A stretch of DNA of 46,216 nucleotides, filler included, from Jimgerdemannia flammicorona (Eukaryota), in assembly GCA_003990765.1 (NCBI GenBank). It is 2 parts of 2 records of this genome, joined end to end, with 100 filler letters (N's around TTAATTAATTAA, not from the genome) between each part and the next. Parts side by side here need not be neighbours in the genome. Positions count along the whole stretch, not along the records: positions 23,168 to 46,216 come from RBNJ01001165.1; 1 more part is not named here. One strand, written 5' to 3'. Made by a program: the position numbers and the translations under genes. Shown in pieces: positions 170 through 46,216 of this stretch; positions within the stretch are counted from its first letter, which is position 1, and each line of letters begins with the position of its first letter. The notes beneath the pieces are model-generated. The model did no database searches and had not been told where the DNA came from. It saw only the letters and a list, made by a program, of their open reading frames with translations.

Positions 170-174
<5 letters not shown>

Positions 175-8173: not shown

Positions 8174-8232
<59 letters not shown>

Positions 8233-23167: not shown

Positions 23168-24902
23168 AAAAAGGGGAAGTGGAGGGACTGCTGGGGGTAG
23201 TGGTGGGACTGCTGATGGTGGTGTAACAGCGATTCGGGAAAAAAAGAGAGATGTGGCAGTTGATGGCCAGGGGGGGCAGGGGTTCCCAATGAGGAAGGGG
23301 GACCTGGCAGATGATGTAACGGGACTGGCAGTGGCCCCGTTGCTCAAGAAGTCAATCTCGGAGTTCGCGGTTACCTTGTGCTTCCGAGGCTTGGCAGTGA
23401 CAGCAAGGATGGTCCTGGGGCTTATCTCGAGGCAGGTGGCTGGGGCGGCTTCGGTGAAGTTCTTGAAGGGCATGGAGGGGGTTGAGGTGGGCTTTGAGGA
23501 GGTGGGCCTACTGGATGAGGCCATGAAGACGGGCATGGTGGTTGGGGAGGTGGTGGTCCCCATGGTAAGGTGCTTGAGGTGGGACCCCAGAGTGGCACAG
23601 CTCCTGGTGAGGGGAGTGCCCATGGTAACTAAGGAGGAGACAAGGAGGAGGGTGGAGGAGGTGATGGTTGAGTATGGAGATGTGGTGGACATTGGCTTTC
23701 AGTTGTGGGAGGGGACGACTATCAGGACGGGCGACATTGATGTCAGGATTCAGTTGGTAGGGAAGGAGGCTACAGGGAAGACGAGTGATTTGCCCTTAGT
23801 GCTGATGTGGGGGGCTGTCGTCTGCAAGGTGTCGAGGGTAAAGGGGAGCGAAGAGAAGGAAGAGGACTTGTTGGAGGCACTGGAGGAGTTGGGTGGTACT
23901 GTGGAGAGAAGGGCGAAGGCCTGGAAACTGTATGAGGAGTCGACGCATCTGGAGGTTGTGGGTGGGAGGCATATCCGTATGGATAAGAAGCAGTGGGAGT
24001 GGATTCAGGGATGTAAGAAGCAGAAGGAGCTATTGGCGAGTATGACTGATGGGGGGAAGAAGAAGTCAGGTGGAGCTGAGGAGGCTGGAGGCACTGAGGC
24101 CAGTGTCTGGGCTGGCAAAGTGGGAGAGGAGGTGGAGGCGAAGGAGACAGGGACTGGGAAGGGGCTGGACAAGGACCCATTTGCTGATGGTACCTTTGAA
24201 GTGTGGGAGCCAGTGCTGGATACCACCCCCCCCCCACTTATCAGGAGGGGCCCAGTTGGGAAGCGAGGGGGGACAGAGGATACACAGATGCAGGGGGCCC
24301 AGCAGGTGCGATTTGGGGTCCCTGATATGGCTCAAGGGGGTCAGGTAGTGGCAGTTGGCGAGGATGAGCTGGTGGATGTCCCTGAGGAGGAGTGGGATGA
24401 GGCTGCTAGTGTAGGAGCTGACACCACAATGTTGGATGCAGGGCGACTGGGGACTCTGGGAGGGAAGGAGGTAGGGAACTTGTTGTGGGTATGCAAGGTG
24501 ATGGATAACCTCGCAGCAGAAGCATTGGGGGAGGTGGACCTGCGGGCGATGCCTGAGGAGCATTGGGCAATGATTCTGCATGGGGATGGAATAGTGGAGG
24601 CTCTGAAGGTGGAGATTCTGGCGATTTTGATGGAGGAGGAGGGATATGAGGTTGATGAGGTGAGGAAGGCAGAGCTGGGGGTGGTCGCTGGTGAGAGGGC
24701 AGATTACTGTTGGGCAGAGCGTCATGGTCTGCAGCTCTGGCAGGAGGCCTGTCTGGAGTATCATGAGGATTTTGAGGAGTGTGAGGATGGGGCAATGGTA
24801 GAACTTCTGGGAGAGTTGGAGGCACAGGAAGCTGGGGAGAGGAAACTGGCTGCTGAACTTAACTTGGACTTGGTGCAGGAGAGGCAGGATGCCGACTTAT
24901 AG
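23168..24902 (+). CDS. LINE ORF1 (5'-incomplete, >549 aa; RRM-like segment, acidic C-terminus)
   Basis: Frame open from the gap to TAG 24900-24902; LLVRGVP...EYGDVVDI...TGDIDV...LP resembles Tx1/L1 ORF1 RRM regions. Confidence 0.8.
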
Positions 24903-24934
24903 AGGATGGGCCCTGACATATATCATTATTCTTT

Positions 24935-27900: not shown

Positions 27901-28531
27901 GCTTGGCCAGGACCTTTGGCCAAGTGGCTGGCAGGCTGTTGGAATCGGAGAGGAGTGGGACTGGGCAGGCATCTGGTCTTGGAGTGCTGAGGTATGGAGG
28001 TGGCTTCCTCCCAAGTACTGGGTGGTATGGTGGAGAATGTTGCAGAGGAATGTCATGCTGAATTTCCACTCGGGGCATTTAGTAGAGGGTGGACAATTTG
28101 ACTGCGAGGAGTATTATGATGTTGGGCAAGCTGGGGGTTATGTACAGATGCCGGAACATTGGCTGGGAGAGTGTGAGGTCTTGGGGGAATTTTGGGCTGA
28201 GATAGGGGATAGACTGGGTGTTGGGCATCAGCTGGTAGGGGAGGGGGGTCGCTGGGAGGACTTAAAATCTCGGCTTGTGGGTGGGATAGGGGATAGTTGG
28301 CTCACTGTAGGATGGGTGTTGGCAGTATGGGTGGGACTGATGGGATATTGGCTTTTCATGTTTGAGGAGGGGCAGTGGCTGGGGCTACATGAGAAGGTGT
28401 TACGGTGGGAGGAGCTACGTGAGAAGGTGTTATGGTGGGAGGAGCTGGTGGGGGATCTGCTGACAGGTTGGTGGGTGGGTTGGGGACCTCAGGGGGGACG
28501 ACGTCGAGGTTTGGTGATGGAGAAGTGTGAG
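24935..28531 (+). pseudogene. LINE ORF2 (APE endonuclease-reverse transcriptase-Cys/His domain) with several nonsense codons
   Basis: MNSTTNIFSLNVNGL, LGGDFN, RIDWIL, SDH; RT WRPIMLLDID, LDQEKAYDRV, GVPQG, FADD, RYLG; C-terminal DCEE(C/Y)...PEHWLGEC; stops in the APE region and at 27665-27667. Confidence 0.93.
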
Positions 28532-29030
28532 ATCTTAGAAGACTTTTAAAAGATAATTAGTAGTCAGCTGAGAGTATATCTATCTGAGTAGAAGATAGAG
28601 GAGTGGTGGGCTGTCCTTTAGATACAGCTGGTGGGAGGGGTAGATAATGAGTAGTTGATAGTTAGGTGGGCTCTGACTATTTGGATTGAGCTTGCTAGAT
28701 ATTAGCTATATATATTTGAAGATAGTCAGAAGTTAGTACTTTGGGTATAGGTTATATAGTGAGAGTGGTTAATATTGGAGCTTCTGAATAGATAGTGATA
28801 GAGATAGAGACCCTGAGGGAATCTGCAGTATAGACTTGTAGAGAGAATTTATATAAAGAGTGGGAGAAAAATCAGTATATCTGGGGGGGTAGTTTTCTTC
28901 TAAAGAGATGGGAGGAGAGAAAGAGAGAGCTCTCTATAGAATTGGGTAAAGAGAGCTCATCTATATTAATATAATATAAAATGGTTGGTAATAAATATAG
29001 GAGTCTAAGTAACTATAAAATAAAAATAAA
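28532..29030 (+). mobile_element. Old LINE family A 3' fragment with polyadenylation signal and A-rich tail
   Basis: Aligns with 1820-2313; ggtAATAAAta.aggagtc.aagtaactata followed by an A-rich run. Confidence 0.85.
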
Positions 29031-31980
29031 AATGGAGTTATCTGACTCTCTACCAGTTTCTGAACTAGCCCTATTCTTATTATATTTAAGAAAGAAGGAT
29101 AGAGACTCTATATATACTATAGAAAGCTTAACTAAGTAATAAAAAAAGATATCTACTCTTTGCCAAGAATTGATAACCTCCTAGACCAACTATAAGATAT
29201 CAGATACTTCAGCAGTATAGACCTTTTTACAGAATTTTATAAGATCTCTATAGACTTCAAGGATATTCAGAAGACAGCTTTTCTTACTCTAGAAAAACTG
29301 TTTGAATATCTCTAAATATTCTTTGAACTCTGTAATATACTCTCTATCTTTTAGAGAATAATGAACTCAGTCTACAGTCTACTGATCCACTACTATCTGA
29401 TTATATATACATTATGATGAGCAGCAGAATTATACTGTTGAAATCATAAATTAGCCACATATTATATCTAGTGTACTAAGCAACCAAGACTGCTTTACTG
29501 CACCAAACCTGTATAATTAGCCAGAGATACTAGAAACAGTATATTTATCTGTATCAGTCCAGTATACTGTACTGAGTGAATATACTGTTCTGGTCTAGTA
29601 TACTATACCATTCAGGTATATATATCATAGATAGCAATCTATAATTAGCTACATAGTAACCAGTAGCAACCACAACTGTATAAAATACCCCAGAGATAAG
29701 AGTGAATAAACCTCAGTCTGAAATTGAATCTAAAGCAACAGCATTCTCTTTCCACTCTGGTCCCCTTTTCAATACAAAGCCTTGGTTCGCTTGCCAGATA
29801 AGCCTGAAGAATTTGAGTGTATCTGCCACTTGAAGAGCCACCATTTTCAAGAAGTTCACCATCTTGCCACAAAGCCAATCTCTTTTGATGTAACTTCACA
29901 CAAATGAAGCCAGTCTTGACATAACTTTGCCAAGAAAAGAATCTGAGTTATTTAAGAAGTCCGCCGATTCAGGAAGAATCTGCGTCATCTGCTGTTTTCG
30001 AGTTATCTGCTATTCCCAGAGAGCCCACTATTCTTGCCACAAGCCAGTCTATCTGATGCAACTTCGCAGTGGAGCCAGTCCATCTGACATAACCCCATGC
30101 AAATGAAGCCAGTCTTTGACATAACTTGCCAAGAATCCGCGACATCTGAGTTATCCGCGTTATCCGAGTTATCTGCATTATCTGAGTTATCCGATATTTC
30201 CAGAAGAACCTGCCGACCTGCACCCAAATCCAGTTATCCGCCAAAATCGCATACTTTTGGAGAAACATCACGCTACACAAGAGATCGTCACGCCAAGATC
30301 GTCATGCAGAAATCACACATACTTTTGGAGATCGTTGCGCTACACAAGATCGTCATGCAGAAATCGCATACTTTTGGAGATCACAGAGATCGTCACCCAT
30401 ACTGTGCCACATGCAAATTGCCGCTACACCCAGAGAACCGTCCCAATAAGGAAATCGATCGCAGATATCCAGCTTTGACTATTATACCACTAAACACCAA
30501 GGATCTTAGGAATCTTAGAACATTTTGTTGCTTTTTGACATAGTAACTGGGGGCTCAAGCCAAACTACACCAACCCCCAACCTTGTAATTTAATTTGCCT
30601 CTATTGAGCCAGGCACGTTACAACATATAGATAATTCTAACATCTATTTAGCAAATTTTGAAGAACCCCTGCACTATCTAGAAGAATTCTTCCAGCTCAC
30701 CTATAAGAACTACCTGAGACTCAATACTAAGAAATACTACTTTGAAAAACAGAAACTCAAATTTCTTAGATTTATAATTTCTAAAAAAAAAACCCCATAA
30801 AGACCTAAAGAAAACTGAGAAGATCAACAACTGACCAGTATCTAAGATCCAGAAGGAAACACTATTATTCCTAATATTAGTATTCTACTACAGAAGATTT
30901 ATCAAGAACTTTATCCAAATCACTACTCCAATTCAAACCCTTCTCAAGAAAGAAGTACTATACAAATAGATAGAACTACAAGAACTAGCCTTCAGAGAGC
31001 TCAAACACTATATGACTATAGCACCAATCCTTATATAACCTAATCTATAGAGACTATTCATATTATATACAAATTCCTCTAAAGATAGTCTTTGAACATC
31101 CTAGCTCAAGAAGGATCTAACCAGTAGTACTATATAATAACTTATATAAGTCAAGCTATCAATCAGTAGTAAGCTAATTATAGTAACACCAAACTAGAAT
31201 ATCTTGTAGTTATATAGGCAGTCACCCTATTCAAATACTACTTTATCAGAAAAAGATTTACTTTAATAACTAATTATATTACTTTCAAATAGCTACTTAA
31301 CTATAAGAAACCTATTGAAATTCTTATTTACTGGATTCTTATCCTATAGAATTACAAAATCACCATTATTCACAAAGCAGAGAAAGCTAACAATAATATT
31401 GATATACTTTTCCACTAGCTCTAATAAATCAGAAAAAGAGTATATTAAGAAACTAAATTCTAAAAAAAGCTTTTATAACTATTAAAGTACAAGATCTCAT
31501 CTAATAAAAATACCAGAAAGTTCATCAGAGATAGATAAATATAGAGGAGAGGCTATAAATAATATATCAATACTAGTCCTATCTCAGAATATAAGTTTGA
31601 GATATATTTAAGAAATATAACATCTACTAGAAGTATTATAAAAAGAAGAGTACTAAGTATGTACTACTATAACTAATTATACCATCAGATTATATCTTTC
31701 AAAGATGAGAAATAGATGTTATTAGACTCTTATTAGTTATACTAAGAAAAAACAAATATATTCTAGTATTTGTAGAATATCTAATCAAATAGCTCAAAGC
31801 TTTTTCAACAAAATTACTAATATCTTGATCATTTTTGGCCTCCTCTATAGTCTCATACTTAGATATAGACTCTCAGAAGAACTTATTTCTAATAGAGATA
31901 TAGAATTTATTAATAATATAATCATAAGTTATATCTAAATTTACAAGATCTATCTCAAATAAACTACATCATATGTACCT
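29031..31980 (+). mobile_element. pol: Highly eroded Ty3/gypsy pol relic (RT-RNase H-integrase) split by a solo LTR
   Basis: YRKLN...DIYSLPRIDNLLDQL...FSSIDL; RNase H region 31050-31420; integrase motifs resembling WGIDVIGP, VEYLTKW and ELISDRGTEF after reversing G>A/C>T changes. Confidence 0.85.
29413..30622 (+). mobile_element. Solo LTR, family A, TSD ACAT
   Basis: T(A)TGATGAGC...GTTACA; ACAT at 29409-29412 and 30623-30626; TATA-like ~29678 and AATAAA ~29705; homologous to 32371-33746. Confidence 0.88.
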
Positions 31981-32370
31981 CTGCTTCTTATTCTAAAGCT
32001 TATAGGAGTAGATCTAACTATTCTTACTCTAATCTAATTATTGAGTTTATATGGTAGATTCCTACTCTATGGTAGAGTGATATTCAGATTAAAGTAGTAT
32101 AGTATTGATCTGAATCAATTCACTCCTCAGTTACTATTTATACTTCAGAGTTAGAGATATAATCTAAAAATTTCTGATTAATTATAGTAATTGATTCTGA
32201 GGTCTTAGTATAGTCAGTGTGGCTTTAGATAAGTATGTATAATCTATAGTAGCTACAGATATTTCTAAAGCCTGAGTGGTGGTTTCTAAATATCTTATAA
32301 AGATTTTAATAGATTTGGTCTACAAGCTATTGATTGAGATATTGATTAGTATTTTCCTAATTCTATCTAG

Positions 32371-33746
32371 TGTGATGAGCAAATAGTATAATATAGCCAG
32401 ATGATATGAATTCAGCATAGTATAGTTACCAATACATATCATACTTATAATTAACCAGAATACTGAATCAGGGTTGTTTAACTGTGTCCTGAGGATACAT
32501 CTGTATCTGGCAGACATACTTATGTCCTGCAGACACACTCATATCTTAAGGATACACTCAAACATTACCAGAAATAATAAATCTATAATTATCTAGATAG
32601 CAATCAGATAGTAATCACAATATATAAAATACTCTAGAGACAAGAGTGAATAAACCTCAGTTCTGAAATATAAAGCAAAAGACAAGTCTACCTACTATAC
32701 TTCAAGAGATATATATGCCTGCCAAAAGCCACTTGATCTAGAAAAGGATTGCAATACTTAGGAGAAATGTCTACTCTATAGTCACTACTAGGATATTGTG
32801 AGCTTTGTCCCTTTCTCACTCTGGTCTACTTTCCAATACAAAGCCTTGGTTCACTTATCAGATAAGCCTGAAGTTTGCCACCAAGTTCAAAGAAGAACTT
32901 CACTGCCATTTGAGAAATCTGCCACTTAAGGAATAAGCCACTATGTTTTTGGTTCACTTTCCAGACTAAGTCCGAAGAACCAGAGTTATTATTCTAGAAG
33001 CTCACTGATTCAGAAGAATTCATATCACCTGCTGTTTTTAAGTTATCTACATTTCCAGAAAGCCTGCTATTCTTGCTACAACTAGTCTCTTGGCATAACT
33101 TCACAGTGATTCATTTGTGCAAATGAAGCCAGTCTTGATATAACTTGCCAAGAACCCAAGTTATTATTCCCAGAAGAGCCCAATTTGGAAGAATCTACAC
33201 TATCTAAGTTATTTCCCAGAGAGCTACCAGTTAAGAAGAATCCGTGACATCTGGATTATCTAAGTTATCTGAGTTATCCACACCATCCAAGCTATTAGTT
33301 TGTTCCCAGTGAGTCCAAGAAGAACCTGCCATCAGTATAATTTCCAGAGAACCCAACTTAGAAAAATCTGTGATATTCAAGAACCCTGCTGATTGTACCA
33401 CAGAGATCATTGTACTACACAAGTTTGTCATACAGAAATTGTATACTTTTGGAGATCATCATGCTATACATAAAATTCTACCAATTCCCAGTTGACTCAA
33501 AAAGAAAATCCATTTACACACAAATTGCCGCTATATCCAGAGAATCATCCCAATAAGGAAATCTGCATAAATTGACTACTATGCAAACAGAGGAACTACT
33601 ACTGTATCCAGATTGATGATTATACCACTAAATACCAAGGACCTCAGGAATCTTAGAATATTTTATTGCTTTTTGCTGGGGGCTCAAGCCAAACTTCATC
33701 AACCTCCAACCTTGTAATTTGCCTCCATTGAGCCAGGCATGTTACA
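32371..33746 (+). mobile_element. Solo LTR, family A, TSD CTAG
   Basis: TGTGATGAGC...TGTTACA; CTAG at 32367-32370 and 33747-33750. Confidence 0.9.
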
Positions 33747-34093
33747 CTAGTCCTAATGACTGTTATAAGATAGGTTCTAGTCTATAGATCAATTGAATTA
33801 TCCATAATTAGTTCTGGATATTCTCTTATCTAAGATTGAATCTTAATTCCAACTTATAAGAGAGTCTTAATACTATCTTGGCTTGAAATTCTACTACTAT
33901 TAAGTTATAATATACTTATCTCAACTTCTCTTATATCTTTAGATAACTTGAACAATAAGATATTACTTAGGAATTTAATACACATATATATTAAGAAGCT
34001 GTTTAATTATTCTTTCACTTAGTAGTATTTATTAAGATTGAGAAAGTATAGTTTCTTATAGCAGAAAATAAAGGTGTTATCCTTCTTTAGTAA

Positions 34094-34414
34094 TAGTGCT
34101 CTCAAATGAATTGAATCAATTCGAATTGAATCAAATTGAGGGTCCAATTCGAAACCTATTTTTATAAATATAATAACTCGACGAATACATGTCCAAATTC
34201 AATGTTATTTAGCTTATTAGATTCCCCTATATAAGGGGAATCTAACAAGCTAAAGATCATTGAATTTGGATGTGTATTCGTTGAGTTATTTAATTTCTAA
34301 AAATAGAGTTCGAATCAGACCTTGAATCAAATTGGGTCTCAATTCGATTCAAAGTTTTTGAATTGAATCAAATTTGGGTCCAATTTGATTCAATTCGATT
34401 CGTTGGGAGTACTG
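34094..34414. mobile_element. 321-bp fold-back MITE, probably hAT-derived, TSD TTTAGTAA
   Basis: TIRs tagtgctctcaaatgaattgaat / attcgattcgttgggagtactg; 8-bp TSD at 34086-34093 and 34415-34422; internal palindrome centred near 34231. Confidence 0.85.
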
Positions 34415-36354
34415 TTTAGTAATAGTGGTTATAAGAGACATATTCTTACTATATATAGACTAAATATCTTATAATTTAGATTTAAAGAGATTTCTTTTTT
34501 AGATTTATATATCAGTTCTTAGTTCTAATAAAAGTTAGCTGAACTTCTAGAGTTTAGTCAGAAATACTAGAGTAACTTAGATATCATTACTAAGAAACTC
34601 AGAGAAATATATATAGAGAGAGATTTGTACTTAACTAAGAGCTGGTTTATTTCAAATATAATTACTGAGATATTTATACATATTAGCTAAGTAATAGTTT
34701 ATAGTTTTCTAACTAAGTATATATAACTAATTTAGTATATAATTATATTGATTATTTGTTTGCAAAATGAATGGTCTATATTGTACTTTAGATAAATAGG
34801 ATAATATATTAGTTAAGTAATACAGTTACTATAATATAGGCTATAGCTTTAATATTAAGATATTTTGATATATTATTTCTATATTTTGCTTATCTCACTT
34901 ATATCATTCATCTTTTTATATATTACTCATTTATAATATTATTACTGGGTTATGTGATTACTATTTATAGTATATTATCAATTTATTTATAATATAATTT
35001 TTATTATATCTCTTTCTCTAAATATATATATTATATACTCTAGAATACTATCCTTGACTATCAATACTAGTTTATCTAAAAATATATTAATTTAGATATA
35101 TATGATCTTGAGTAGTATTTATAAGCTACTGATAAAGTTATATCTAGAATACAATAGATTATCAGATATTTTATAACATTAAGAAACTATTAAGTAGATA
35201 GACTCATTATTAAGAGTAATATAAATATTTTAGAGATTTTGAACAAATATAATATCTCTACTTTTAGACAGTAAATTCTACTCTATATTTATTAATTATT
35301 CAGAAAAATATCCTTTATTATTAGTGATATATAAGGTATTACTCTTGTTAAAATTGATGATCTCAATAATACTCATACTATATAAATAGAGTTAAATCTT
35401 ATAAATGACTTTAATCTCTAAGACTACTATAATAATAACACTTAGCTATATGAGAATAAGATATTCAATACTATTATTAGTCTCTTTTAAGAACTAATTA
35501 TATAAGTCATAATCTCTATTAGTATCTAACTATCTGACTACTCTATCAGACTAATCTCTAACTAGTTATCTATATTATCTGAGATCATAAGTTTAGAGAC
35601 TAACTCAGATGAGTCAACCTATTTTTCTTCTTTCTAATTTCTTATATAGAAGTCTTCTATTACTATATAATATAATATAATATATAATAAGTCTATAGCA
35701 AAATCTAGAATAATTATCTCATAGTTAATATATAAAGATAATATTATTAAATAGTATTATTATGACTTAGTAATAATACTATTATAGTATAATCTTTATA
35801 TTATATTTTAGTAACTTTATATCTTAACCAATAGTTAGCAAAAGTTAAAAGATCTCCAAAATGTATAAATACTTCTATAAATATAATATAATAAAAGACA
35901 GAATTTTTACCTCTCAATTAATTAGTCTCTGAATTATTTAGAATAAAATATAATATCTAAAATTAGATATTTTGAACTTTATAAATACTTATACTCTAAA
36001 GAATATATATAATTCTCAGAACTAGACTATATCTGAAAAGGATATACTAAAAGACTTAAACTTTAAAGAATTAAAGTCTGTAATTGCTAAATTATTATAT
36101 AAGTCTATCAGAAGAGAATTAGATCAATTAGAGATATAACAGACAGTACTTAGATATTAAGATAGCTACTTTCTCAAACTAAAGAAATCTAATATAAGTA
36201 TCTTTAAGGTATTGATACTAAGGATTATTAACTTAAGAAGTATAATTATAATAATAGTAAAATATATTATTATATATATATTTCAAGATATCTTTCAATT
36301 GTTCTTTTGTTTAGTTATATTTACTAAGATTGAGAAAGTATAGTTTCTTTATAG

Positions 36355-37923
36355 TATTATATAGTAGTCACTGAGTCCTTCAAATATACCAGATTCTCTT
36401 CAAGGTATATCTCTTAGACTAACTTAAGTTTATTATAAGCAAGTTCTTATTAGAGTGTCTTCCCAAGATTTTATAGTCCTCAAACTTCTTATCTTTTAAA
36501 CTGTCTTATTATCTCTTAGATTGCTTACAAGAGATTGTGTATAAGTGAACTAGAACTGACTTTATTTCAGAGGAAATAAGAGGAATATTTATATAAAATA
36601 TAATTCAATGATTGCTAAGATATAAAGCTAAATATAAATTTCAATAACTAAAATAAAATGCCAGGATAGGAAAAACTGCTAAGTTCCAGGATCGACACTA
36701 ATGGTTATACAGATTTAGGATGCTGGTATAATTTGATATCACATCAGAATACTAGTGCTGGCATTATTCAGTGTTACATCAGAATGCTGGTGCTGGTATT
36801 ATTCAGTATAATCAAGGGACTTAGAGCAGAATGTTCAAGACCATAGGGGCTTCATTATCAGAAATCAGAATGTCTTTGAAGGAGATGAGGTCTGCAAATT
36901 CATTGTCATTACATAGGTTGTTTTCGTATATATTATACATTTCACATACTTCATGTGCTTCATTGTGTATCTCATGTATATTGCACAGGATAACATCATC
37001 ACTAATGACATCATCATGTTTGGCAGTAGGAAGGAGATCTGAAGCTCTTCAGTCTATAAGGTTCTCTTCTACAAAATAGGAAATAAATGTGGGGTCTTGG
37101 AGAGGTCTAACCTGGATGCTTGGGCCTTAGAATACTGAGATCAATCCTTGTAGGAATTGGTCTGGGTTGTCCTGGAGGATGAGATGCCAGAAGTTTTCTA
37201 CTTCATCACTATTGAGGGTGATAGTGGACTGGGCTTCTGTAGCCATCCTGGCTTCTAGTACATTGATATAGTAGGATGATAGATCTCTGAAATCTGAGAC
37301 TCTAACATACTCCAAGTTGGAGATTGACCATGGTGCATATCTGAAGATCTGATAGATCTTCTTAGCTGTCCTCATTTTGCATATATCCATGAGAGTGGCA
37401 TCTTATAGCTCTTGAGTGCTGGCCTATGGGAACTCTCAGCAGAGGAGGTTTCCTATTTCATACTCCTGCTATATTTGGAGGCATTTGGTAGCAATAGTGA
37501 TCCTTTTTTCCATTTCACAGTAGTAGAGGATATAATGATAAGAGTCACTGGTACCCAGGTTGATACTAGGAGTCCTTCTTGAGTGGGTCCTCATGGCTCT
37601 TCTAATGTCTTGGAATATCCTTTCTTTGACTGAAATACCTTGGTGGTTCTTTGATCTTGAGATTTGGTGGACAGCAGGCATTTCATTTATAGTGAGTCTT
37701 TGAGCTATTTTGGGATTGATGGGTCTTATTGGTTACTGTTACTGTAGTTCCTTGATCCTTCTTTTATATTCCTCAAGATACTTGTACTGTAGTCACAATG
37801 ACTCACAGTTGGTCATCATTACTCATCTCATATGCCATATGATCTTCTTGTGCTCCAATCTGATAGCTTGTAAGGAAAGACTGTCTCCTGTGCTGATGTC
37901 ATCATTCTGGAGTCACCATTATA
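36355..37923 (-). repeat. 3' LTR (family B)
   Basis: Direct repeat of 43608-45159; terminal TG/CA eroded to TA. Confidence 0.92.
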
Positions 37924-38225
37924 TCTTCCTTCTGAATAAGGATCTTCTCAAGCATCCTTATTTATTGGTCCAGTTCTGAAAAATTTGCTGATCCCATAAC
38001 CTCTGGCAAGGGGTCAAAAAGTGGTATTTATGGGCTGATATCTTCTTTTTGTATTTTGGCGTGATGGTGAAGGGTCACATTCTTCATATAGAGCAAGGGC
38101 CTAATTCTGATCTTGACTAATCAATTGACAGTTTGAACTCCTCTGGCTTTGAAAGTCTCATGGATGAGTAGTTGCTAGTGCTATATCTCTTAGAGAATGG
38201 TCCAGACAGATAGTCTGCTGGTCAT
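36821..38225 (-). pseudogene. Extra ORF3 (~468 codons) from just after integrase through the PPT into U3; function unknown
   Basis: Track ORFs 37469-37681 and 37127-37390 share a frame with TAA 36821-36823; one 1-nt frameshift upstream; the 5' LTR copy keeps one frame for 362 codons (45158-44073) to the same TAA. Confidence 0.75.
37924..37933 (-). other. Polypurine tract
   Basis: Minus strand AGAAGGAAGA abuts the 3' LTR. Confidence 0.7.
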
Positions 38226-38236
38226 GGGACATGCTG

Positions 38237-41200
38237 TTACAATTCGTGGACTAGAACCTTGTTGGCAGTTATAACATTTTACTTCTTTTGTATAGTTTCA
38301 TGGTACTTCTTGAGTCTGTTCCTATGTACTGTGGTAGGCAGTATGGTCTCTGAGATTTTTCTAAGCCAGAAGGTAGTTCCCTTGATATCTTGTATGTAGA
38401 AGGGTCCTTCCTATTTGGTCTCCAGTTTTTATGATCATGAGGCTTCTACCATATTTCAATACAGTAGGACCTTTTCTCTGATTTGGATGGGTTCTAGATC
38501 TTATAATTCTTTTCCACATTCTTCCTTATCAGCACTTGTGACTTGATGATGTAATCTTCGGCCTTCTTCCTGATTTGGTGTAGTCTCTGGATTTTTGCAT
38601 TAACCCATCTCCAAGTTAGATCTAGATTTGTAGCTGAGGTTCCATCAGAATCTTCTTCTCCAAAGAGTAGTTCTCTTGGGGTAAAGTGTGTGATGTCTTA
38701 TAGGATAGAGAGAGCAGTTGGGAGATAATTATCCCAATTCTCATATGTCTCTGAGATCTTTGTCAGGATGTTCTTGAGGGTCTTGTTGGTTCTCTCTATC
38801 TGTCCATTTCCTTGAGAGTGATATGTGGTGGTCTTGATGTGCTGGATCTTATATTTCTTATACATTATCTCATAAAATCTATTGACAAATTCTGTACTAT
38901 GGTCTGTTGTGATTTACTTCAGTGTCTTATAGTGGCAGATGATTTCTCCATACAGAAAGTTAGCTATAGAGAGAGTATTGGCTTCTTGTAATACTCCTGC
39001 TTCTATTCATTTGGTAAAGAGGTCTATAATAACTATAATACAGTGGTTTCCTGATAGTGTTACTGGTAGTGGTCCAATGATATCTATTGTGATGTGGTGG
39101 AAGGGGATAGACTCAATTCTTGATGATCTGAGTACCTGGTCTTACTGATCTTATTTCTGTTTTTGACACTTATCACACTCTTTGACAAATTGGTACAGGT
39201 CTTCTTCCATTTTGGGCCACCATATGATTCTTTTTACCTTGTTATATATGTTGGTTCCTCCTAGGTATCTTTGCTTGTATACTTCTTTCATTACTTGATA
39301 CTTCCTGTGTTCAGGTATTACTAGCTTTCCTCCTTTTCTGAGTATAGTGTTGTCTAGTTCAAACTGTTTCCAAGTCTGGTTGATGATGGTAATTATCCAG
39401 GGTTTGAGGTGGTTGGGTATCTTCCACTGCTCAAGGTAGCTGATTAATCTATAGTATAACTCCTTATTCATGTTGAATAGTCTTGATGGGAGTGTTTCAG
39501 GGTATCTTTGAGAGTGCATCAGTATTGGTATTAGTTCTTCCTGAGCAGTGCTTGATAGTATAGTTATACTCTTATAATATATAGATCCATCTGGCATATA
39601 TTCCTTTGGGGTTCAGAGTGTAAAATAGCCAGACAAGAGCAGAATGGTCTGTTTGAATAGTGAAGTATTTCCTGACTAGATAGTAGTAGAACTTATCTAC
39701 TACCCAAACTATTGCTAAACATTTAAGCTTACATAACTCATAGTTCTGTTCTGCTCTGTGGGTACCTTGGCTTGTATAGGAGATAATATATTCATGTCTA
39801 TCTTTCTTCTGAGCTAGGACTGCTCCAAGTTCTATAGCACTTGCATCTTTCTGTAGGATGAATTCTAGATTCCAATCTGGTCTTCTGAGGATAGGTGCTT
39901 GAGTCAATCTGGTCTTGAGTTCATTGAAGGTTTCTTGACATTCCTTGGTTCATTCAAATTTGATATCCTTCTTCAATAGCTTGTAGATAGGTGCTGCAAT
40001 ATTAGAGTATCCTTTGATGAATCTTCTATAGTAGCTGGCTAGTCCAAGGAAGGTATGGACTTCTGTGGTTATTCTGGGTCTTAGGTAGGCTGCAACAGCC
40101 TCAATCTTCATAGAGTCTGTATGGATTCCGGTCTGGTTGATGAGGTGTCTTAGATAGGCAATTTCTTGAGCTATAAACTTGTATTTCTTAGGCTTGATGT
40201 AAAGACCATACTCCTTGAGCTTCTTGAGAGCTAGCTGTATATAATTGATATGTTCTCATGTAGTATTGCTGAAGATGATCATATTATCAACATAAATAAA
40301 GAGCCATTTTCCAATCTTATTGCTGAAGACTCTGTTCATCATTTGCTAGAAAATTGCTGGGATATTGCATATTCCAAATGGCATTTACAGATAGATATAG
40401 GTAGCATCAGGTATGATGAAGACTGATTTCTCACTGGTATCTTGAGTGAGACCAATCTGATGGAAGCCTGAGAACAGATCCAAGGTGGTATAGTATTTGG
40501 CTTCACTTCCAAGAGTGGTAAGGATTTCTTAAATATTTGGTAAGAGCTGTCTATCCTTCTTGGTGATGGCATTGAGCTTTCTATAGTCAATGCAGAGTCT
40601 TGGTGCAAACTCTTCAGAATTGCTTTCTTTCTTTGGGACAAGGATAATAGATAAAGCCCAGGGACTAATAGCTTACTTGATGATTCCAGCTTCTTCCATT
40701 TCCTTGAGTTCTACTCACAGTCATTCTCTGTAGGCAGGTGGTATGAGTCTGACTTTCTAATAGATGGGCTTGGTATTGCCAGTGTCAGCTTCATGGTAGT
40801 ACTTGGGTTCTTGATTGTAGATATTTTTGAAGTCTGTAGCAAGTACTCCTTCATTCTGGTGCAGGATCTTGAGAAGTTGTTCTTCTAGGGGAAAGTTTTC
40901 TCCAATAGTATATGTGTACTTGTTCTGGTCCTTGTCTTTCTTGTATTCAAGTTTGGTAATCTTGGTGGTAGCATAGGCTCCTCTTCCAGTAGATCTAAAG
41001 CCTTATTCTCCTCTCTTGGTCTTGATGAGTTTGATGTCTTCAATGATCTTGAGTTTCTTGATTTCATGGATCAGCATCTGGCCAATCCTGTCATGCTTCT
41101 TGACTTCAAATGGAGTAGTAGGGTTGTGATTCCTGACTATGAGAAAGATCTTGTCAGTATAATCAGGGTCAATTACTCCTCCTTCAACTGAGATTTCACT

Positions 41201-43487
41201 TTTGGCCAGACTGCTTCTGGTCTTGATAATTCCAGCATGGTTCTCTGGTAGCTTGACTCCAATTCCAGTATCAAGTAAGGTGGTGGTCTGTGGTTTGAGA
41301 GTAGCATTTTGAATGCTGACAAGGTTTATTTCTATGGTTCCTTCAGTCTTATATTCTGGGATCTTGGCTTTGGGGTGAAACTTCTTGACCTTGAGAGTGA
41401 TGTCTGATTCTTGTTTCTCCTCATCGTCACTGTCAACTTGAAGCTCTGGGGAGTGGTCATCTTCTTTGGCTTTTCTTTTTACTTTGGCAGCTTCTTGCTT
41501 GTATTTCTATTGATAGATTTTTCTGACTTCACTGATACAGGACTAGCAGTCATTCAGGTGTTCAGAGCAGTATCCTAGTACCATGGGGGTATCTTCCTTG
41601 AGGAATATAGTCATTGATGATCTTATAATACCACTGCTCATCTGTGAGCTTGGGTGTCTTGTTCTTGTTCTTGTTCACTGAGTATATGAAGACCTCTGTA
41701 TCCTCTTCATCTTCTTTCTCTATGTTTGGTAGGACTCCTTTGTAGACATTGATAGAGACTTGTACCTTTCTTCCTCTATAGTTGATCTGCATCTTCTGGG
41801 CATTGAGATCAATGATGGCCTTGGCCTTGTGAAGCCATTGGTTACCAATAAGGATGTCATAGTTGGTGGTACTTATAACAATCACATCTACTGGGATGAT
41901 AGCTCCTCCTATCTTGATGGGAACTTCTCAGATTTTGCTAAGAGGGGTAGCTCGTGTACCATCTGCTGTAACATAGACCATCTTGGTGGACTCTTCAATA
42001 TCCCAGCCTAGGCAGTTAATTGTCTTCTTGCTCATAAGACATCCTCTAGCACCAGTATCAATGATGGCATCAAAGATACAGTCTTCAATCTGACATAGGA
42101 TATAGGCTGATGTCTTGTGCTGGTCTTTGGATTCTTTACCTGAGTTTTTGGATTCTTCCTGTGCATTGTGAGCCTCTACAATCTTGTACTCTTGATTCTT
42201 AGCAGTAGTTGCAAGTCCTACTCTCAACTGTTGTCTGAAGACAGGAACTTTAGCTAGTTGTCTAAAAGTAGTATTGACCTTCTGTTCTTTGAGGTTCTTG
42301 TAGATATCATACTGGTGGATCTTGGTCTTGCACAGCTTCTATTCCTTCTTGTTTTTGCTTTCTTCTGAGACTGGAGTAGTGCCTTCAATAATTTGGCAGG
42401 CAGCTTCATCTAACTCCATATTCTGATCAATCTCCTTAAGTTGGGTTTTGCTTTAAATAGTGACAGCTAGGGTCTTCTTTGGTCTTCCAACTGGTTTGCT
42501 GTTGCTCTTCTTATCATAGGGCTTGAACTGGGTTCTGATACCTTCAGTAGTATAGTAGAATTCAAGCTCCTTATAGTATTCTTCATCATCAGTGTCACCA
42601 ATCTCCTTGATGACTACTGCCTTAGTTTGTTCTCTAGTTCTGCTAGTATTGCTTGGTTGGGCTTTGCATCTTGTTTCAGTTATACAATTCTTTATATAGT
42701 GGTCTTCTTCTGTACATCTGAAGCATATGATATTGTATACTTCTGTAGCAGCTGCAAATCTCTACACTGGTCTCCTGTTGGTGCTTCAGACTTCACTAAC
42801 AATATTACCAAGATGTGCAGTCATTTCAGCAAACTGCTTAGCAAGTTCCTCCACTGGGTCAGCTTTGGCTGTCTTGGGGATAGGTGGGGATAGTTGTCTG
42901 TTTACAACTGTAGTAGGTATGATACTGGTTGGCTTCGATGGCTCTATCTTGATGCCAGTTATTTTCTCTATTGAGTGTTTGGCAGAGTATCTGGCAGTTC
43001 AATATCTCTGTGCAAAGACCACTTTCTGATCAAGAGTCAGTACAGCTGAAGTAGACCAGATTGCTAGGGCAATTTCAGAGTGAACTCCTTTGAGGAAGGT
43101 TGAATCTGCTATTTGTTCCTTGAGGGCATCATCATAGTCAGCCAAGACAATCTGGTGGCAGATTTAGATATAGAATGAGTTGGGATCTTCACTAAGTCTC
43201 TGGTAGATAGTATTGAGTTGATCCTTGAGAGCTTGTTTGATCTCTTCAGTATAGTATGTTGTTCTGAGAAAGGTCTTTATGTTGACAAGTTTGGCTGCAC
43301 CATTATCAGCAATAGTGGCTACATTGAACTTGTCTCTGGCAGGTCCTCTGAGGCTGACTGATAGAAGGGCCAATTGTACATCCACACCAAGGGCTTATAT
43401 GGTAGCAAATTGTTCAAAGTCTTCAATGAAGATCAGGATTGACTTTTCAGTAGTATATCTATAGAATGTGGGGGGATGCATTTCCAT
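38237..43487 (-). pseudogene. gag-pol: gag-pol polyprotein with nonsense codons
   Basis: ATG 43487; knuckle CFRCTEEDHYIKNC (~42684-42725); protease AIIDTGA...DILIG; RT with IYVDN (eroded YVDD, ~40285); RNase H QKDAS; integrase CDKCQ, SIDIIGPLP and GPF-type motif. Confidence 0.92.
40985..41400 (-). pseudogene. dut: Trimeric dUTPase domain between protease and RT
   Basis: LKVKKFHPKAKIP...EGTIEINL (eroded motif I), TRSSLA (II), GGVIDPDYTD (III), HDRIGQ (IV), RGE*GFRSTG (V). Confidence 0.93.
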
Positions 43488-43587
43488 CTTATCTTAAATT
43501 CTTATAGGGGTGACTCTTGTAGTCAGATTAGTTGTTGTGGAGGTTGTTCATTTTTCAGCTTGAAAGTGAGGGATTCATCTTGAATCA

Positions 43588-43604
43588 CCAGCCAATGGGC
43601 ACCA
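43588..43604 (-). other. Primer binding site (tRNA not assigned)
   Basis: Minus strand TGGTGCCCATTGGCTGG begins 3 nt after the 5' LTR terminal CA. Confidence 0.7.
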
Positions 43605-43607
43605 AGT

Positions 43608-45159
43608 TGTCATGTAGTAGTCACTGAGTTCTTCAAATATATCAAATTTTCTTCAAGGTATATCTCTTAGACTAACTCAAGTTTGTTATAAGCAAGTTCT
43701 TATTGGAGTGCCTTCCCAAGGTTTTATAGTCCTTAAACTTCTTATCTTTAAACTATCTTATTATCTCTTAGATTACTTGTATAGAATTGAGAGTAAGTGA
43801 ATTGGAACTAACTTTATTTTAGAGGAAATAAGAAGAGTATTTATATAAAATATAATTCAATGGTTGCTAAGATATAAAGCTAAATATAAATTCCAATAAC
43901 TAAAATAAAATACCAGGACAGAAAAAACTGCTAAGTTCCAGGATTGGCACTGATGGTTGTATAGGTTCAGGATGTGGGTATAATTCAGTATCACATCAGA
44001 ATACCAGTGTTGGAACAATTCTGTATCACCTCAGAATGCTGGTACTGGAACAATTCTGCATCACCTAGGGACTTAGAGCAGAATGTTCAGAACCATGAAT
44101 GCTTAATCCTCATTGTTGCTGAAGGAGATGAGGTCTGCAAATTCATTATTATTATATAGGTTGTATGTTTCATATACTTCATACATATCATGCATCTTAT
44201 ATATATTATGCAGGATGACATCATCACTGATGATGTCATCATGTTTGGTGGTAGTAGCAGTGGGAACAAGGAGATCTAGAGCTCTCCAGTCTATGAGGTT
44301 CTCTTCTACAAAATAGGGAACAAATGTGGGGTCTTGGGGAGATCTAACCTAGATGCTTGGGCCTTAGAATACTGAGATCAATCCTTGTAGAAATTGATCT
44401 GGGTTGTCCTGGAGAATGGGATGTCAGAAGTCTTCTACTTCATCACTATTGAGGGTGATAGTAGACTGGGCTTCTATAGTCACCCTGGTTTCTAGTGCAT
44501 TAATACAGCAGGATGATAGGCCTCTGAAGTCTGAGACTTTAACATACTCCAAGTTGGGAATTGATCATAGTGCATGCCTGAAGATCTGATGGATCTTCTT
44601 AGCTATCCTTATCTCACATATATCCATAGGAGTGGCATCTTGTAGCTCCTGAGGGCTGGCCTGTGGGAACTCTCAGTAGAGGAGATTTCCTATTTCATAC
44701 TCCTACCATATTTGGAGGCATTCAGTAGCAATGGTGATCCTTGTTTCCATTTCATAGTGGTAGAAGATAAAGTGATAAACATCTGCAGTATCCAGATTAA
44801 CACTAGGAGTCCTTCTTGTGTGGGTCCTCATGACTCTTCTGATGTCTTGGAACATCCTTTCTTCAACTGAGGTACCTTGGTGATTTCTTGACCTTGAGGT
44901 TTGGTGAGCAGCAGGCATTTCATTTGTGATAAGTCTTTGAGCTATTTTGAAATTAGTGGGTCTTATTGGTTGCTACTATTGCAGTTCCTTGATCCTTCTT
45001 TTATATTCCTCAAGATATCCATACGTGGTCACAATGACTCACAGTTGGTCATCATTGCTTATCTCATATACCATATAATCTTCTTGTGCTCTAATCTAGT
45101 GGCTTGTAAGGAAGAGCTGTCTCTTGTACTGATGTTATCATTCTGGGGTCACCATTACA
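43608..45159 (-). repeat. 5' LTR (family B)
   Basis: Minus strand TGTAATGG...CATGACA; TATATAAA at 43840-43847; ~2.6 x 35-bp tandem repeat at ~43977-44066. Confidence 0.93.
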
Positions 45160-45211: not shown

Positions 45212-46216
45212 TTTTTACACTGCCTGCGAGCTTGGTGGTTGAGAAGGGCTGTTGATCTACAGGGTGGAGGTTGGGTGCAGTTGATGAAGAAGGTGTGGGA
45301 GATGAGAGTCTCCCCCCAGGGGTCCACAGGGGATCTACTCTCTTTGGTGGGTCTGAATGGAAGTCGATGGTTATAGTATAAGGGCTTCTGGTGGGGAGTG
45401 GTTGATGGGGTGCACCAGATAAGCCTACGCTGGCGTGGAAATGAGGGGGAGGAGGTATGGGGTCCAGCTATGTGGCGATGGGACTGTCTGCTTCTAGGGG
45501 GAGTTTCATTAGCTGAGTTTGACATTGGCGATGGAGTAGAGGGTCAGCAGTGAATTGGCCAGGATCTTTGGTCAAGTAGCTGGTAGGCAGTGAGGATTGG
45601 TGAAGAGTAGGATTAGGCAAGGATCTGGTCTTGGAGTATGGAGGTCCGGTGGTGGCTCCCTCCTAAGTTCTGGGTAGTGTGGTGGCATATGTTGCGGAGG
45701 AATGTTATGTTGAACTTCTGTGCTGGACATCTGGTGGATGGGGGTCAGCTGGATTGTGAGGAGTGTTATAATGTTGGGCAGGTTGGGGTTTTGTGCAAAT
45801 GCCAGAACATTGGCTGGGGGAGTGTGAGGTTCTGGGTGACTTTTGGGTAGCTGTAGGGGACCGCCTTGGGGTTGAAAGGAGACCAGATGGGGAGAGAGGT
45901 CGCTGGAAAGATCTGGAATCTAGACTTGTGGGAGGTGTCAGTAATAGGTGGCTTACTGTAGGATGGGTTGTGGCAGTGTGGGTGGGGTTGGCTGGACATT
46001 GGCTCTTTGTTTTTGAGGAGGGGCAACAGATAGGGATACAGGAGAAGTTATTGAGATGGGAGAAGTTGGTGGCAGATTTGTTGATAGGGTGGTGGGTTGG
46101 GTGGGGACTGCAAGGTGGGTGACGTCGCCGTCTGGTGGAAGGGATCTGTGAGCAGAGTAGTGGGTGGGTGGCGATGGTGTTTGATAAAGTGGTTTTTCAT
46201 CGAGAAGGGGTAGGGG
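45212..46216 (+). mobile_element. LINE family A copy 5 (ORF2 C-terminal part, runs off the window)
   Basis: LHCLRAWWLRRAV, WWLPPKFWVVWW, DCEECY...MPEHWLGEC; colinear with 27563-28530. Confidence 0.92.

What the first reader, a model, noticed from the sequence alone, without database searches (positions are those of the whole stretch)
36821..38225. Gypsy element with a ~468-codon accessory ORF running through the PPT into U3
Seen: an ATG at 38225, just after the integrase end, opens a sense frame (MTSRLSVWTIL...IRMLEKILIQKEDIMVTPE...YLEEYKRRIKEL...EYEIGNLL...AKKI(H/Y)QIFRHAPWSIPNLEYV...acidic tail) that crosses the PPT and fills ~1.1 kb of U3. The 5' LTR copy holds frame for 362 codons; the distal indels between LTRs net 15 nt; both end at the same TAA just before 35-bp repeats and the TATA box. 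Internal stops are compatible with C>T/G>A erosion. No signal peptide or TM helix is evident, so it is not env-like. Established: U3-overlapping accessory genes are known in complex retroviruses (HIV nef, MMTV sag) and are unusual for fungal Ty3/gypsy. Inference: an undescribed accessory protein (transactivator or anti-silencing factor) that solo LTRs could also disperse; with the dUTPase this gives a retrovirus-like complex genome.
Basis: partly seen in the sequence, partly recalled or inferred. Interest (0 to 1): 0.8.

Follow-up and report, generated by a model that had tools for sequence, protein, structure and literature searches.

The report
Protein gene hidden inside a retrotransposon's LTR
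Each long terminal repeat of this decayed gypsy-type retrotransposon carries a mutated copy of a real, conserved gene of about 286 codons for an unknown soluble protein, an arrangement best known from one mouse retrovirus and not one I could find described for retrotransposons.

Summary
The element (minus strand) is a Ty3/gypsy retrotransposon with a dUTPase between protease and RT. Its LTRs are 1.55 kb (36360-37923 and 43613-45159) and 14% diverged, mostly by transitions.

Inside each LTR lies a decayed 286-codon frame (37681-36821 and 44918-44073) with 6 and 7 stops and no frameshift. Eleven intact relatives, 27-75% identical, exist in public metagenome protein sets. They form an orphan family with no Pfam or PDB match. 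All five relatives that reach the N-terminus start MP(A/P)xR at the window's ATG 37681.

So the gene lies wholly within the LTR. A TATAAAAGAA box sits 80-87 nt upstream of the ATG in both the window and a distant metagenomic relative. This suggests the gene has its own promoter.

The protein has a basic N-terminus, a helical core and an acidic tail, with no membrane segment. Its function is untested. A regulatory or transactivator-like role is my best guess, at low confidence. No RNA data, host identity or further LTR context could be obtained.

The parts
36360..37923 (-). 3' LTR (1564 nt). It starts TATAATGG (TG>TA relative to the 5' copy) and ends ...CTACTATA.
   Evidence: LTR-LTR alignment; motif coordinates
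43613..45159 (-). 5' LTR (1547 nt), TGTAATGG...CTACTACA
37924..37933 (-). Polypurine tract AGAAGGAAGA, abutting the start of the 3' LTR
   Evidence: sequence read
43592..43604 (-). Primer-binding-site-like TGGTGCCCATTGG, 8 nt after the 5' LTR
   Evidence: The tRNA match was not tested.
36821..37681 (-). LTR-internal ORF, 3' LTR copy: ATG 37681-37679 to TAA 36823-36821, 286 codons, 6 internal stops, no frameshift
   Evidence: single tblastn HSPs of intact homologues; stop map; alignment A4
44073..44918 (-). LTR-internal ORF, 5' LTR copy: ATG 44918-44916 to TAA 44075-44073, 7 internal stops, no frameshift
37759..37768 (-). TATAAAAGAA box 87 nt upstream of the ORF's ATG (3' LTR), at LTR position about 156
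   Evidence: Identical in both LTRs. The same 10-mer lies 80 nt upstream of the ATG in L001.
44996..45005 (-). The same TATAAAAGAA box in the 5' LTR
36741..36807 (-). 35-bp tandem repeats (1.9 copies) just after the ORF stop, enhancer-like. The 5' LTR copy is at 43982-44066 (2.4 copies).
   Evidence: The motif ACTGAATAAT recurs downstream of the ORF in L001.
36586..36595 (-). Second TATA-like box, TATATAAATA (5' LTR copy at 43838-43847). It is the candidate promoter of the genomic RNA.
   Evidence: The function is inferred.
36561..36566 (-). AATAAA polyadenylation-signal-like hexamer, 29 nt after the second TATA (5' LTR copy at 43813-43818)
   Evidence: The function is inferred.
37934..38278 (-). 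Spacer between the pol stop (38281-38279) and the PPT.
41006..41506 (-). dUTPase domain between the protease and RT of the decayed pol
   Evidence: Pfam PF00692, E 2.1e-20
38279..43612 (-). Internal gag-pol region, full of stops and frameshifts. It holds a weak zinc knuckle, aspartyl protease, dUTPase, RT, RNase H and integrase.

Best explanation
Each LTR of this Ty3/gypsy element carries a mutated copy of a genuine, selectively maintained gene of about 286 codons. The gene lies entirely inside the LTR, at LTR positions about 243-1103. The window's two copies were inactivated after insertion by the same transition-biased, CpG-erasing decay that ruined gag-pol.

Shown: the gene is real, its limits are as given, it belongs to an orphan protein family, and it sits in both LTRs.

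Inferred, about 50%: the gene is a self-contained transcription unit. A conserved TATAAAAGAA box 80-87 nt upstream of the ATG would start a roughly 1.2-kb mRNA that ends at the LTR's own AATAAA. Under this reading the 5' LTR, the 3' LTR and any solo LTR can each express it. The element's genomic RNA would start at the second TATA, downstream of the 35-bp repeats, which places the gene in U3.

Inferred, about 25%: the product is a nuclear regulatory protein. It is soluble, with a basic N-terminal 40 residues, a helical core of about 170 residues carrying the motifs W(H/Q)EYEI, HQ(I/V)FRHxP and LQDNPDQ(F/W)LQ, and an acidic, disordered C-terminal tail with DLIxF and VLNF hydrophobic motifs. Such a protein could act as a transactivator or adaptor that raises the element's own expression or counters silencing.
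For: Reality of the gene.
- phmmer-type searches with the stop-masked window frame found intact proteins. Three of 298 candidates passed, at E 1e-104 to 3e-74 and 62-70% identity. Five hits with E<=0.001 were found in 1.84 billion representatives. A profile search added two more.
- Together with a cluster member (P0006) and the ORF read from L001, this gives 11 stop-free relatives at 27-75% identity. They fall into three subgroups and align without frame breaks.
- Nucleotide identity between the L001 ORF and the window copies is 0.61-0.66 at codon position 2, 0.50-0.52 at position 1 and 0.37-0.40 at position 3.

Limits of the gene.
- All 5 relatives that reach the N-terminus (P0004, P0007, P0009, P0012, P0013), and the ORF read from L001, begin MP(A/P)xR at the window's ATG 37681/44918.
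- In-frame stops lie 17-19 codons upstream in both LTR copies and 17 codons upstream in L001.
- At 37739 all 14 X1 soil-metagenome contigs that cover the place change TAA to TAG, so the upstream stop is kept.
- tblastn finds the gene at exactly two places in the window, one in each LTR, as single HSPs.

Decay after insertion.
- The LTRs differ at 218 of 1529 aligned sites, and 192 of these are transitions.
- The rate is the same upstream of the ORF (33/237), inside it (123/831) and downstream (62/461). Differences fall 40/33/50 on codon positions 1/2/3.
- CpG observed/expected is 0.02-0.04 in the element, against 0.79 in window 1-17000.
- Of the 13 in-ORF stops, 12 sit where the nearest homologues have W, Q or R.

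Own promoter.
- TATAAAAGAA is identical in both LTRs and in L001, at 87 and 80 nt from the ATG.
- The 41 nt around the ATG give the best-scoring nucleotide match between L001 and the 5' LTR (80% identity, E 6.5e-4). The conserved blocks are colinear.

Protein features.
- Net charge is +5 to +8 in the first 40 residues of three of four intact members (+1 in P0009). The C-terminal third is strongly acidic. Max KD19 is <=1.07.
- The AF2 core-domain model is helical (pLDDT 66, pTM 0.61).
Against: - There is no transcript evidence of any kind: no RNA run holds the stretch. The promoter, the poly(A) site and the U3/R assignment are therefore read from motifs only.
- The TATA 10-mer match alone is not significant (E 4.5).
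- Linkage of the family to gypsy LTRs rests on this one element. L001 is a 1535-nt contig with no recognisable PPT, gag or pol, and the other homologues are known only as proteins from 0.6-4.8 kb contigs.
- Two of the in-ORF stops are shared by both LTRs (TGA at 37438/44675 and TAA at 37129/44366). Either the copy that inserted was already broken or the mutations were parallel.
- The codon-position test used a protein-guided alignment, which favours positions 1 and 2.
- Function: there is no Pfam hit, no PDB sequence hit and no fold match (best Foldseek E 0.26; best VIA Z 4.5). The whole-protein model is poor (pLDDT 37). An acidic tail with hydrophobic motifs is common in many unrelated proteins.
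- All four in-ORF indels between the LTRs are multiples of 3, while the three indels outside are 1 nt. Purely neutral post-insertion decay does not predict this. It hints that the two LTRs may come from different family members by recombination.
Confidence: 0.6

Rival explanations
1. Long-R model. The upstream TATAAAAGAA is the element's only promoter, so U3 is only about 185 nt. The ORF then lies in a roughly 1.2-kb R region and is the 5'-proximal cistron of the genomic RNA, repeated at its 3' end. Gag would be reached by splicing, reinitiation or an internal entry site.
For: The upstream TATA is the one conserved with L001, at the same spacing to the ATG. L001 does not reach the second TATA, so conservation of that box could not be checked.
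Against: A 286-codon ORF plus about 700 nt before gag would block scanning ribosomes. Tandem 35-bp repeats, then a TATA, then AATAAA 29 nt later is the canonical enhancer-promoter-poly(A) layout of the end of a U3. An R of 1.2 kb would be exceptional (recalled knowledge, not tested).
Confidence: 0.2
2. nef/sag-like expression. The ORF has no promoter of its own and is translated from a spliced subgenomic mRNA made from the genomic transcript, using the 3' LTR copy only. This is how the first reader pictured it, but with the corrected ORF limits.
For: This is how U3-overlapping genes of complex retroviruses are mostly expressed (recalled knowledge). The ORF is on the sense strand, downstream of pol.
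Against: The conserved TATA box and leader block directly upstream of the ATG in two distant family members are unexplained by this model. No splice signals were examined and no RNA data are available.
Confidence: 0.15
3. One reading: a roughly 468-codon accessory ORF that starts at ATG 38225 after integrase and runs through the PPT into the LTR.
For: A sense ATG exists at 38225. In the 5' LTR, the LTR's first 80 codons are in the same frame as the conserved ORF.
Against: The frame stops after 11 codons and has about 11 stops in its first ~145 codons. In the 3' copy a 1-nt indel puts it out of frame with the conserved part. No homologue extends upstream of the MPA start. The upstream in-frame stop is kept in other copies and L001 has one too.
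Confidence: 0.03
4. Passenger gene. The ORF is a host (or other) gene once captured into an LTR and carried along, with no role in the element's life cycle.
For: There is no similarity to any retroelement protein. LTR context is shown for one element only.
Against: Three divergent subgroups (27-75% identity) keep the ORF, its start and the upstream TATA. Relatives appear only on short, unnamed metagenome contigs, and none is a named host gene. Soil contigs hold the family in thousands of fragments (5900 laid from X1).
Confidence: 0.08

Closest known systems
MMTV sag (superantigen ORF in the mouse mammary tumour virus LTR)
   Same: An ORF of about 300 codons lies inside a long (>1.2 kb) LTR, upstream of the promoter-proximal part of U3. 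Every LTR therefore carries a copy. The MMTV layout is recalled, not from a call.
   Different: Sag is a type II membrane glycoprotein. This family has no hydrophobic segment and no Pfam hit of any kind at E<=1. The host is a soil eukaryote and the element is a Ty3/gypsy retrotransposon, not a betaretrovirus.
Accessory regulators of complex retroviruses that overlap U3 (HIV nef; foamy-virus tas/bet with an internal promoter)
   Same: These are sense-strand extra genes 3' of pol/env that reach into U3. Foamy viruses use a dedicated second promoter, and Tas combines a DNA-binding part with an acidic activation domain (recalled). That resembles the basic N-terminus and acidic tail seen here.
   Different: Those genes start upstream of the LTR and only overlap it, whereas here the whole gene lies inside the LTR. 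There is no sequence or fold similarity.
Extra ORFs of plant Ty3/gypsy elements (Retrosat2/RIRE3/RIRE8 ORF0, Ogre ORF1, Athila env-like)
   Same: They are lineage-specific ORFs of unknown function in gypsy elements with long LTRs (PMC3485330, passages read; PMC2864245, passages).
   Different: ORF0 lies in the internal region upstream of gag-pol and the env-like ORFs lie downstream of pol. None is inside the LTR.
dUTPase-bearing fungal gypsy elements (PosPlaTy3-5 of Postia placenta; elements of Phanerochaete and Tuber)
   Same: A dUTPase domain lies between PR and RT (PMC2864245 passages).
   Different: That paper's figure legend lists an 'add. ORF' of unknown function for some fungal elements, but the passages I read do not place it. 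I did not see the figure or the supplements. The nearest named pol relatives here are Mucoromycota at 42-43% identity, not Basidiomycota.

Membership tests
Ty3/gypsy LTR retrotransposon | Two direct long terminal repeats (TG...CA) with a PBS after the 5' LTR and a PPT before the 3' LTR | tested here: met
   The LTRs are 84.4% identical. The ends are TGTAATGG...CTACTACA, the PPT is AGAAGGAAGA at 37933-37924, and a TGG-starting PBS-like site is at 43604-43592. No clear target-site duplication was seen.
Ty3/gypsy LTR retrotransposon | Pol domain order PR-RT-RNase H-integrase | tested here: met
   Pfam hits along the minus strand: Asp_protease_2 (41931-42338), dUTPase (41006-41506), RT_RNaseH_2 (39575-39949) and Integrase_H2C2 (39154-39612). 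The top homologues carry PF00078, PF17919, PF17917 and PF00665.
Ty3/gypsy LTR retrotransposon | Gag with a CCHC zinc knuckle | tested here: inconclusive
   zf-CCHC_2 scores E 0.0012 with 19 bits, below the 27-bit cut-off. The copy is decayed.
dUTPase-bearing gypsy elements | dUTPase domain within pol | tested here: met
   PF00692, E 2.1e-20, 73 bits against a cut-off of 22. The closest relative, P0015, also carries PF00692 together with PF00078.
MMTV Sag-like LTR-encoded superantigen | ORF contained in the LTR upstream of the genomic promoter | tested here: inconclusive
   The ORF is wholly inside both LTRs. Whether that part is U3 depends on the transcription start, which could not be mapped (no RNA).
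MMTV Sag-like LTR-encoded superantigen | Type II membrane protein with a hydrophobic anchor, and sequence membership in the Sag family | tested here: not met
   Max Kyte-Doolittle-19 is 0.64-1.07 in four intact members. There are 0 Pfam families at E<=1 for four intact members.
Retroviral/acidic transcriptional activators (Tas-, VP16-like) | Nuclear localisation, DNA or cofactor binding, and an activation domain that works in a reporter assay | not testable with these tools
   Only composition is known: a basic N-terminus and an acidic tail with DLIxF/VLNF motifs. There is no sequence or fold match.
Plant gypsy ORF0 (Retrosat2 type) | Extra ORF in the internal region upstream of gag-pol | tested here: not met
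   Here the ORF is inside the LTR, not between the PBS and gag. The ORF0 position comes from PMC3485330 passages.

The most novel reading that the evidence does not exclude
The LTR of this gypsy lineage is itself a complete gene, with promoter, 286-codon ORF and poly(A) signal. It would encode a new kind of retrotransposon accessory regulator that is expressed from both LTRs and from every solo LTR. Recombinational loss of the element's interior would then leave behind a working, dispersed trans-acting factor. That factor might boost sister elements or blunt the host's CpG-methylation-based silencing. The result would be a retrovirus-like 'complex genome' that evolved independently in a soil eukaryote, probably an early-diverging fungus.
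Probability: 0.2. Interest if true: 0.85.

Novelty: new variant of a known kind. Interest (0 to 1): 0.62.

Why it matters
Accessory genes are what separate 'complex' retroviruses from simple retroelements. Genes that lie wholly inside an LTR are very rare; MMTV sag is the textbook case. A conserved orphan protein family carried in the LTRs of a retrotransposon, apparently with its own promoter, would be copied twice per element and would survive as solo LTRs. That changes how such LTRs should be annotated, because they are usually masked as non-coding. It also gives a concrete candidate for a TE-encoded regulator or counter-silencing factor.

The family can be tested now. Natural intact members exist (for example the 291-aa ORF of L001), so nothing needs to be repaired. 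The finding also shows that LTR masking hides real genes: none of the 11 relatives carries a name other than 'hypothetical protein'.

Tried and rejected
- Whole genome: none is held for this window.
- Earlier notes of this scan: nothing found by place, sequence or words.
- DNA context of relatives:
  - The first metagenome scan found none among 81 pattern matches.
  - The second found 1 locus, L001, among 93.
  - Viral contigs gave 0 of 49 and genome contigs 0 of 15.
  - L001 is only 1535 nt and shows no PPT, gag or pol, so linkage to gypsy LTRs outside the window stays untested.
- Sequencing runs: no RNA holder was listed. Only four soil-metagenome DNA runs hold small shares of 0.02-0.15.
- Laid contigs: they show thousands of short family fragments and that the window has A/T where they have G/C (X1: A>G 352 and T>C 278, against G>A 173 and C>T 122). 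Only 40 of 1635 difference rows were printed, so the stop positions could not be checked one by one. The joints between the two LTRs in that table are alignment switches between repeat copies, not structures.
- Structure:
  - The whole-protein AF2 model was unusable (pLDDT 37.2).
  - The core-domain model (pLDDT 66) gave no Foldseek match at E<=0.001 (best 0.26) and no VIA match above Z 4.5. That is below the level expected by chance for helical models.
- ESM Atlas: only unnamed clusters came up. One at 0.89 is mostly Mucoromycota, and the Atlas's own model of P0004 has pLDDT 0.35. These are leads only.
- Other sequence libraries: there was no match in the PDB sequence profile search and none in Pfam.
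- Clathrin-box reading of DLISFE: rejected, because the acidic last position is not kept (K or S in several members).
- RIP versus CpG deamination: not separable. C/T differences have A as the next base in 63 of 115 cases, but opposite-strand decay of one CpG in the two copies gives the same count.
- dN/dS among intact copies: impossible, because only one relative's DNA is held.
- Literature: seven full-text searches were run. I read passages of PMC2864245, PMC3485330 and PMC10787394. None described an ORF inside the LTR of a retrotransposon. The supplements and figures of those papers were not seen.
Full report
**Anatomy of the element**

The region is a Ty3/gypsy retrotransposon on the minus strand.
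- Two direct repeats align at 84.4% over 1577 columns (full alignment).
- Motif coordinates place the 5' LTR at 45159-43613 (TGTAATGG...CTACTACA) and the 3' LTR at 37923-36360. The 3' LTR starts TATAATGG, a G>A change of the TG.
- A polypurine tract, AGAAGGAAGA (37933-37924), abuts the 3' LTR.
- A PBS-like TGGTGCCCATTGG (43604-43592) follows the 5' LTR after 8 nt.
- The interior is a decayed gag-pol. Pfam finds an aspartyl protease, a dUTPase (E 2.1e-20), RNase H and the integrase zinc-binding domain in the gypsy order.
- A 644-residue stop-masked frame (10 stops) has 571 homologues at E<=1e-10 among 7999 scored candidates. The best is an unnamed 514-aa protein at 82% identity that also carries dUTPase and RT. 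The nearest named ones are Rhizopus and Rhizophagus proteins at 42-43%.
- Pol ends at TAA 38281-38279.
- The host is therefore not identified. An early-diverging fungus is a reasonable guess, not a result.

**Checking the observation**

First, the stretch from ATG 38225 is not open.
- It reads MTSRLSVWTIL and stops, and it has about 11 stops in its first ~145 codons.
- Over 38330-36800 the three sense frames have 41, 22 and 23 stops. So the 468-codon frame as a whole is no more open than another frame.
- In the 3' copy a 1-nt indel at 37788 separates this stretch from the downstream part.

Second, the downstream part does stand out. From 37792 to 36824 there are 8 stops in 323 codons. In the 5' LTR one frame holds for 361 codons with 13 stops.

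Third, the downstream part has intact relatives.
- The stop-masked frame found three stop-free proteins at E 1e-104 to 3e-74 among 298 candidates.
- It found five proteins at E<=0.001 among 1.84 billion cluster representatives, with no length limit and none fused to anything else.
- A profile search added two more.
- A cluster look-up gave one more member of the window's subgroup (P0006) and P0011, an N-terminally truncated reading of the L001 ORF. One metagenomic contig, L001, carries an intact 291-codon ORF.

**The real limits of the gene**

- Five relatives from all three subgroups (P0004, P0007, P0009, P0012, P0013) and the L001 ORF begin MP(A/P)xR. They align to the window's NEMPA, that is ATG 37681 in the 3' LTR and 44918 in the 5' LTR.
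- tblastn with the four closest relatives hits the window at exactly two places, one per LTR. The hits are single HSPs (P0004: 37681-36824 and 44918-44076), so neither copy has a frameshift.
- Upstream of the ATG both LTR copies have in-frame stops 17-19 codons away, and L001 has one 17 codons away.
- At 37739, all 14 soil-metagenome contigs of run X1 that cover the place read TAG where the window has TAA. The stop is kept in other copies.
- The gene is therefore 286 codons long, at LTR positions about 243-1103, and does not cross the PPT. The spacer between pol and the PPT (38278-37934) has no detectable coding content.

**Evidence for selection, and for later decay of this copy**

- The 11 relatives share 27-75% identity with the window frame or with each other, yet they align without frame breaks and share motif blocks: W(H/Q)EYEI, HQ(I/V)FRHxP, LQDNPDQ(F/W)LQ, F(E/Q)GPxI, IxWR, DLIxF and VLNF.
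- Between the L001 ORF and the window copies, nucleotide identity is 0.61-0.66 at codon position 2, 0.50-0.52 at position 1 and 0.37-0.40 at position 3. One caveat applies: the codon alignment follows the protein alignment, which favours positions 1 and 2.
- By contrast, the two LTRs of this element differ as neutral sequence would.
  - There are 218 differences in 1529 aligned sites, and 192 are transitions.
  - The rate is equal upstream of the ORF (33/237), within it (123/831) and downstream (62/461). Differences fall 40/33/50 on codon positions 1/2/3.
- CpG is almost gone from the element (observed/expected 0.02-0.04), while window 1-17000 keeps 0.79.
- Of the 13 in-ORF stops (6 in the 3' copy and 7 in the 5' copy), 12 sit where the nearest relatives have W, Q or R. 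Those 12 are compatible with one C>T or G>A change. One (TAA at 44105-44103, opposite E) needs a transversion.
- Two stops are shared by both LTRs, so either the inserting copy was already damaged or hot-spot mutations recurred.
- One oddity remains. The four indels inside the ORF are 12, 3, 15 and 9 nt, whereas the three outside are 1 nt each. This may mean the two LTRs derive from different family members.

**Signals around the gene**

- A TATAAAAGAA box is identical in both LTRs (37768-37759 and 45005-44996) and lies 87 nt before the ATG. L001, whose protein is only about 40% identical, has the same 10-mer 80 nt before its ATG.
- The 41 nt spanning the ATG and its leader give the best-scoring nucleotide match between L001 and the 5' LTR (80% identity, E 6.5e-4).
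- All matched blocks are colinear: TATA, leader, ORF blocks, then an ACTGAATAAT motif in the 35-bp repeats.
- Downstream of the stop come the 35-bp tandem repeats, then TATATAAATA (36595-36586), then AATAAA 29 nt later (36566-36561), and then about 200 nt to the LTR end.
- This is the usual layout of enhancer, promoter and poly(A) signal at the end of a U3.
- None of this has been checked against RNA, because no RNA run holds the stretch.

**The protein**

- Four intact members have a pI of 4.5-4.9. Three of them have a net charge of +5 to +8 in the first 40 residues, and P0009 has +1.
- All four have a strongly acidic last third and no hydrophobic window above 1.07. They are soluble proteins and not env- or Sag-like.
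- There is no Pfam family at E<=1 and no PDB chain by profile search.
- AF2 on the whole protein failed (pLDDT 37). A core-domain model is helical at moderate confidence (pLDDT 66, pTM 0.61). It has no significant structural neighbour (Foldseek best E 0.26; VIA best Z 4.5).
- ESM Atlas returned only unnamed clusters, one of them mostly Mucoromycota at score 0.89.
- The charge layout and the DLIxF/VLNF motifs in an acidic tail resemble activation domains. I take a regulatory role as the most likely function, at about 25%.

**Comparison with what is known**

- The layout is closest to MMTV sag (recalled), but this protein fails Sag's defining features.
- HIV nef and foamy-virus tas overlap U3 but start outside it (recalled).
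- The extra ORFs of plant gypsy elements lie in the internal region (PMC3485330, passages read; PMC2864245, passages).
- A dUTPase in fungal gypsy elements, including between PR and RT, is already described (PMC2864245).
- Seven full-text searches found no report of a retrotransposon gene lying inside the LTR. I did not see the figures or supplements of the papers read.

**Verdict**

The finding is real and interesting, but it needs correction. It is a decayed copy of a conserved, LTR-internal accessory gene of an orphan family, not a 468-codon frame running through the PPT. The gene and its limits are well supported. Its own promoter is plausible. Its function and its general linkage to gypsy LTRs remain open.

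Noticed in passing
window 23124-28549 (+): A non-LTR (LINE-like) retrotransposon with long open frames. One of 592 aa has no Pfam hit and runs into a stretch of N at its start. One of 718 aa has an RVT_1 domain (E 1.1e-29). The + strand has a strong G-over-C skew of 0.36-0.57.
   Followed up: partly
window 45216-46065 vs 27564-28414: The sequence just beyond the 5' LTR is 74-75% identical to the 3' part of the LINE-like element. The gypsy element therefore appears to have inserted into another copy of that LINE. Further diverged LINE pieces lie at 17011-19937 (direct-repeat families D3, D5-D7).
   Followed up: no
whole window: CpG depletion is confined to repeats. Observed/expected CpG is 0.02-0.04 in the gypsy element, 0.16 in 17000-28500 and 0.25 in 28500-36300, but 0.79 in 1-17000. 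This fits methylation-linked or RIP-like mutation aimed at repeats.
   Followed up: partly
window 36870-37031 and 37788, 36497, 36361: All four LTR-LTR indels inside the ORF are multiples of three (12, 3, 15, 9 nt), while the three outside it are single bases. Neutral decay of two LTRs from one insertion does not predict this. Recombination or conversion between family members is a possible cause.
   Followed up: no
P0013 (175 aa, metagenome protein): Compared with P0012, this relative shows R>C, R>H and R>W replacements. That is the pattern expected from CpG transitions, so it is probably itself a partly decayed copy that happens to stay open.
   Followed up: no
window 6783-7508 (-): A 242-aa open frame in the CpG-normal, non-repeat part of the window has no Pfam match. 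It may be a host gene and could help identify the organism.
   Followed up: partly
window about 8200: A long T run (read as poly-F in a 131-aa frame at 8067-8462) lies in the unique part of the window.
   Followed up: no
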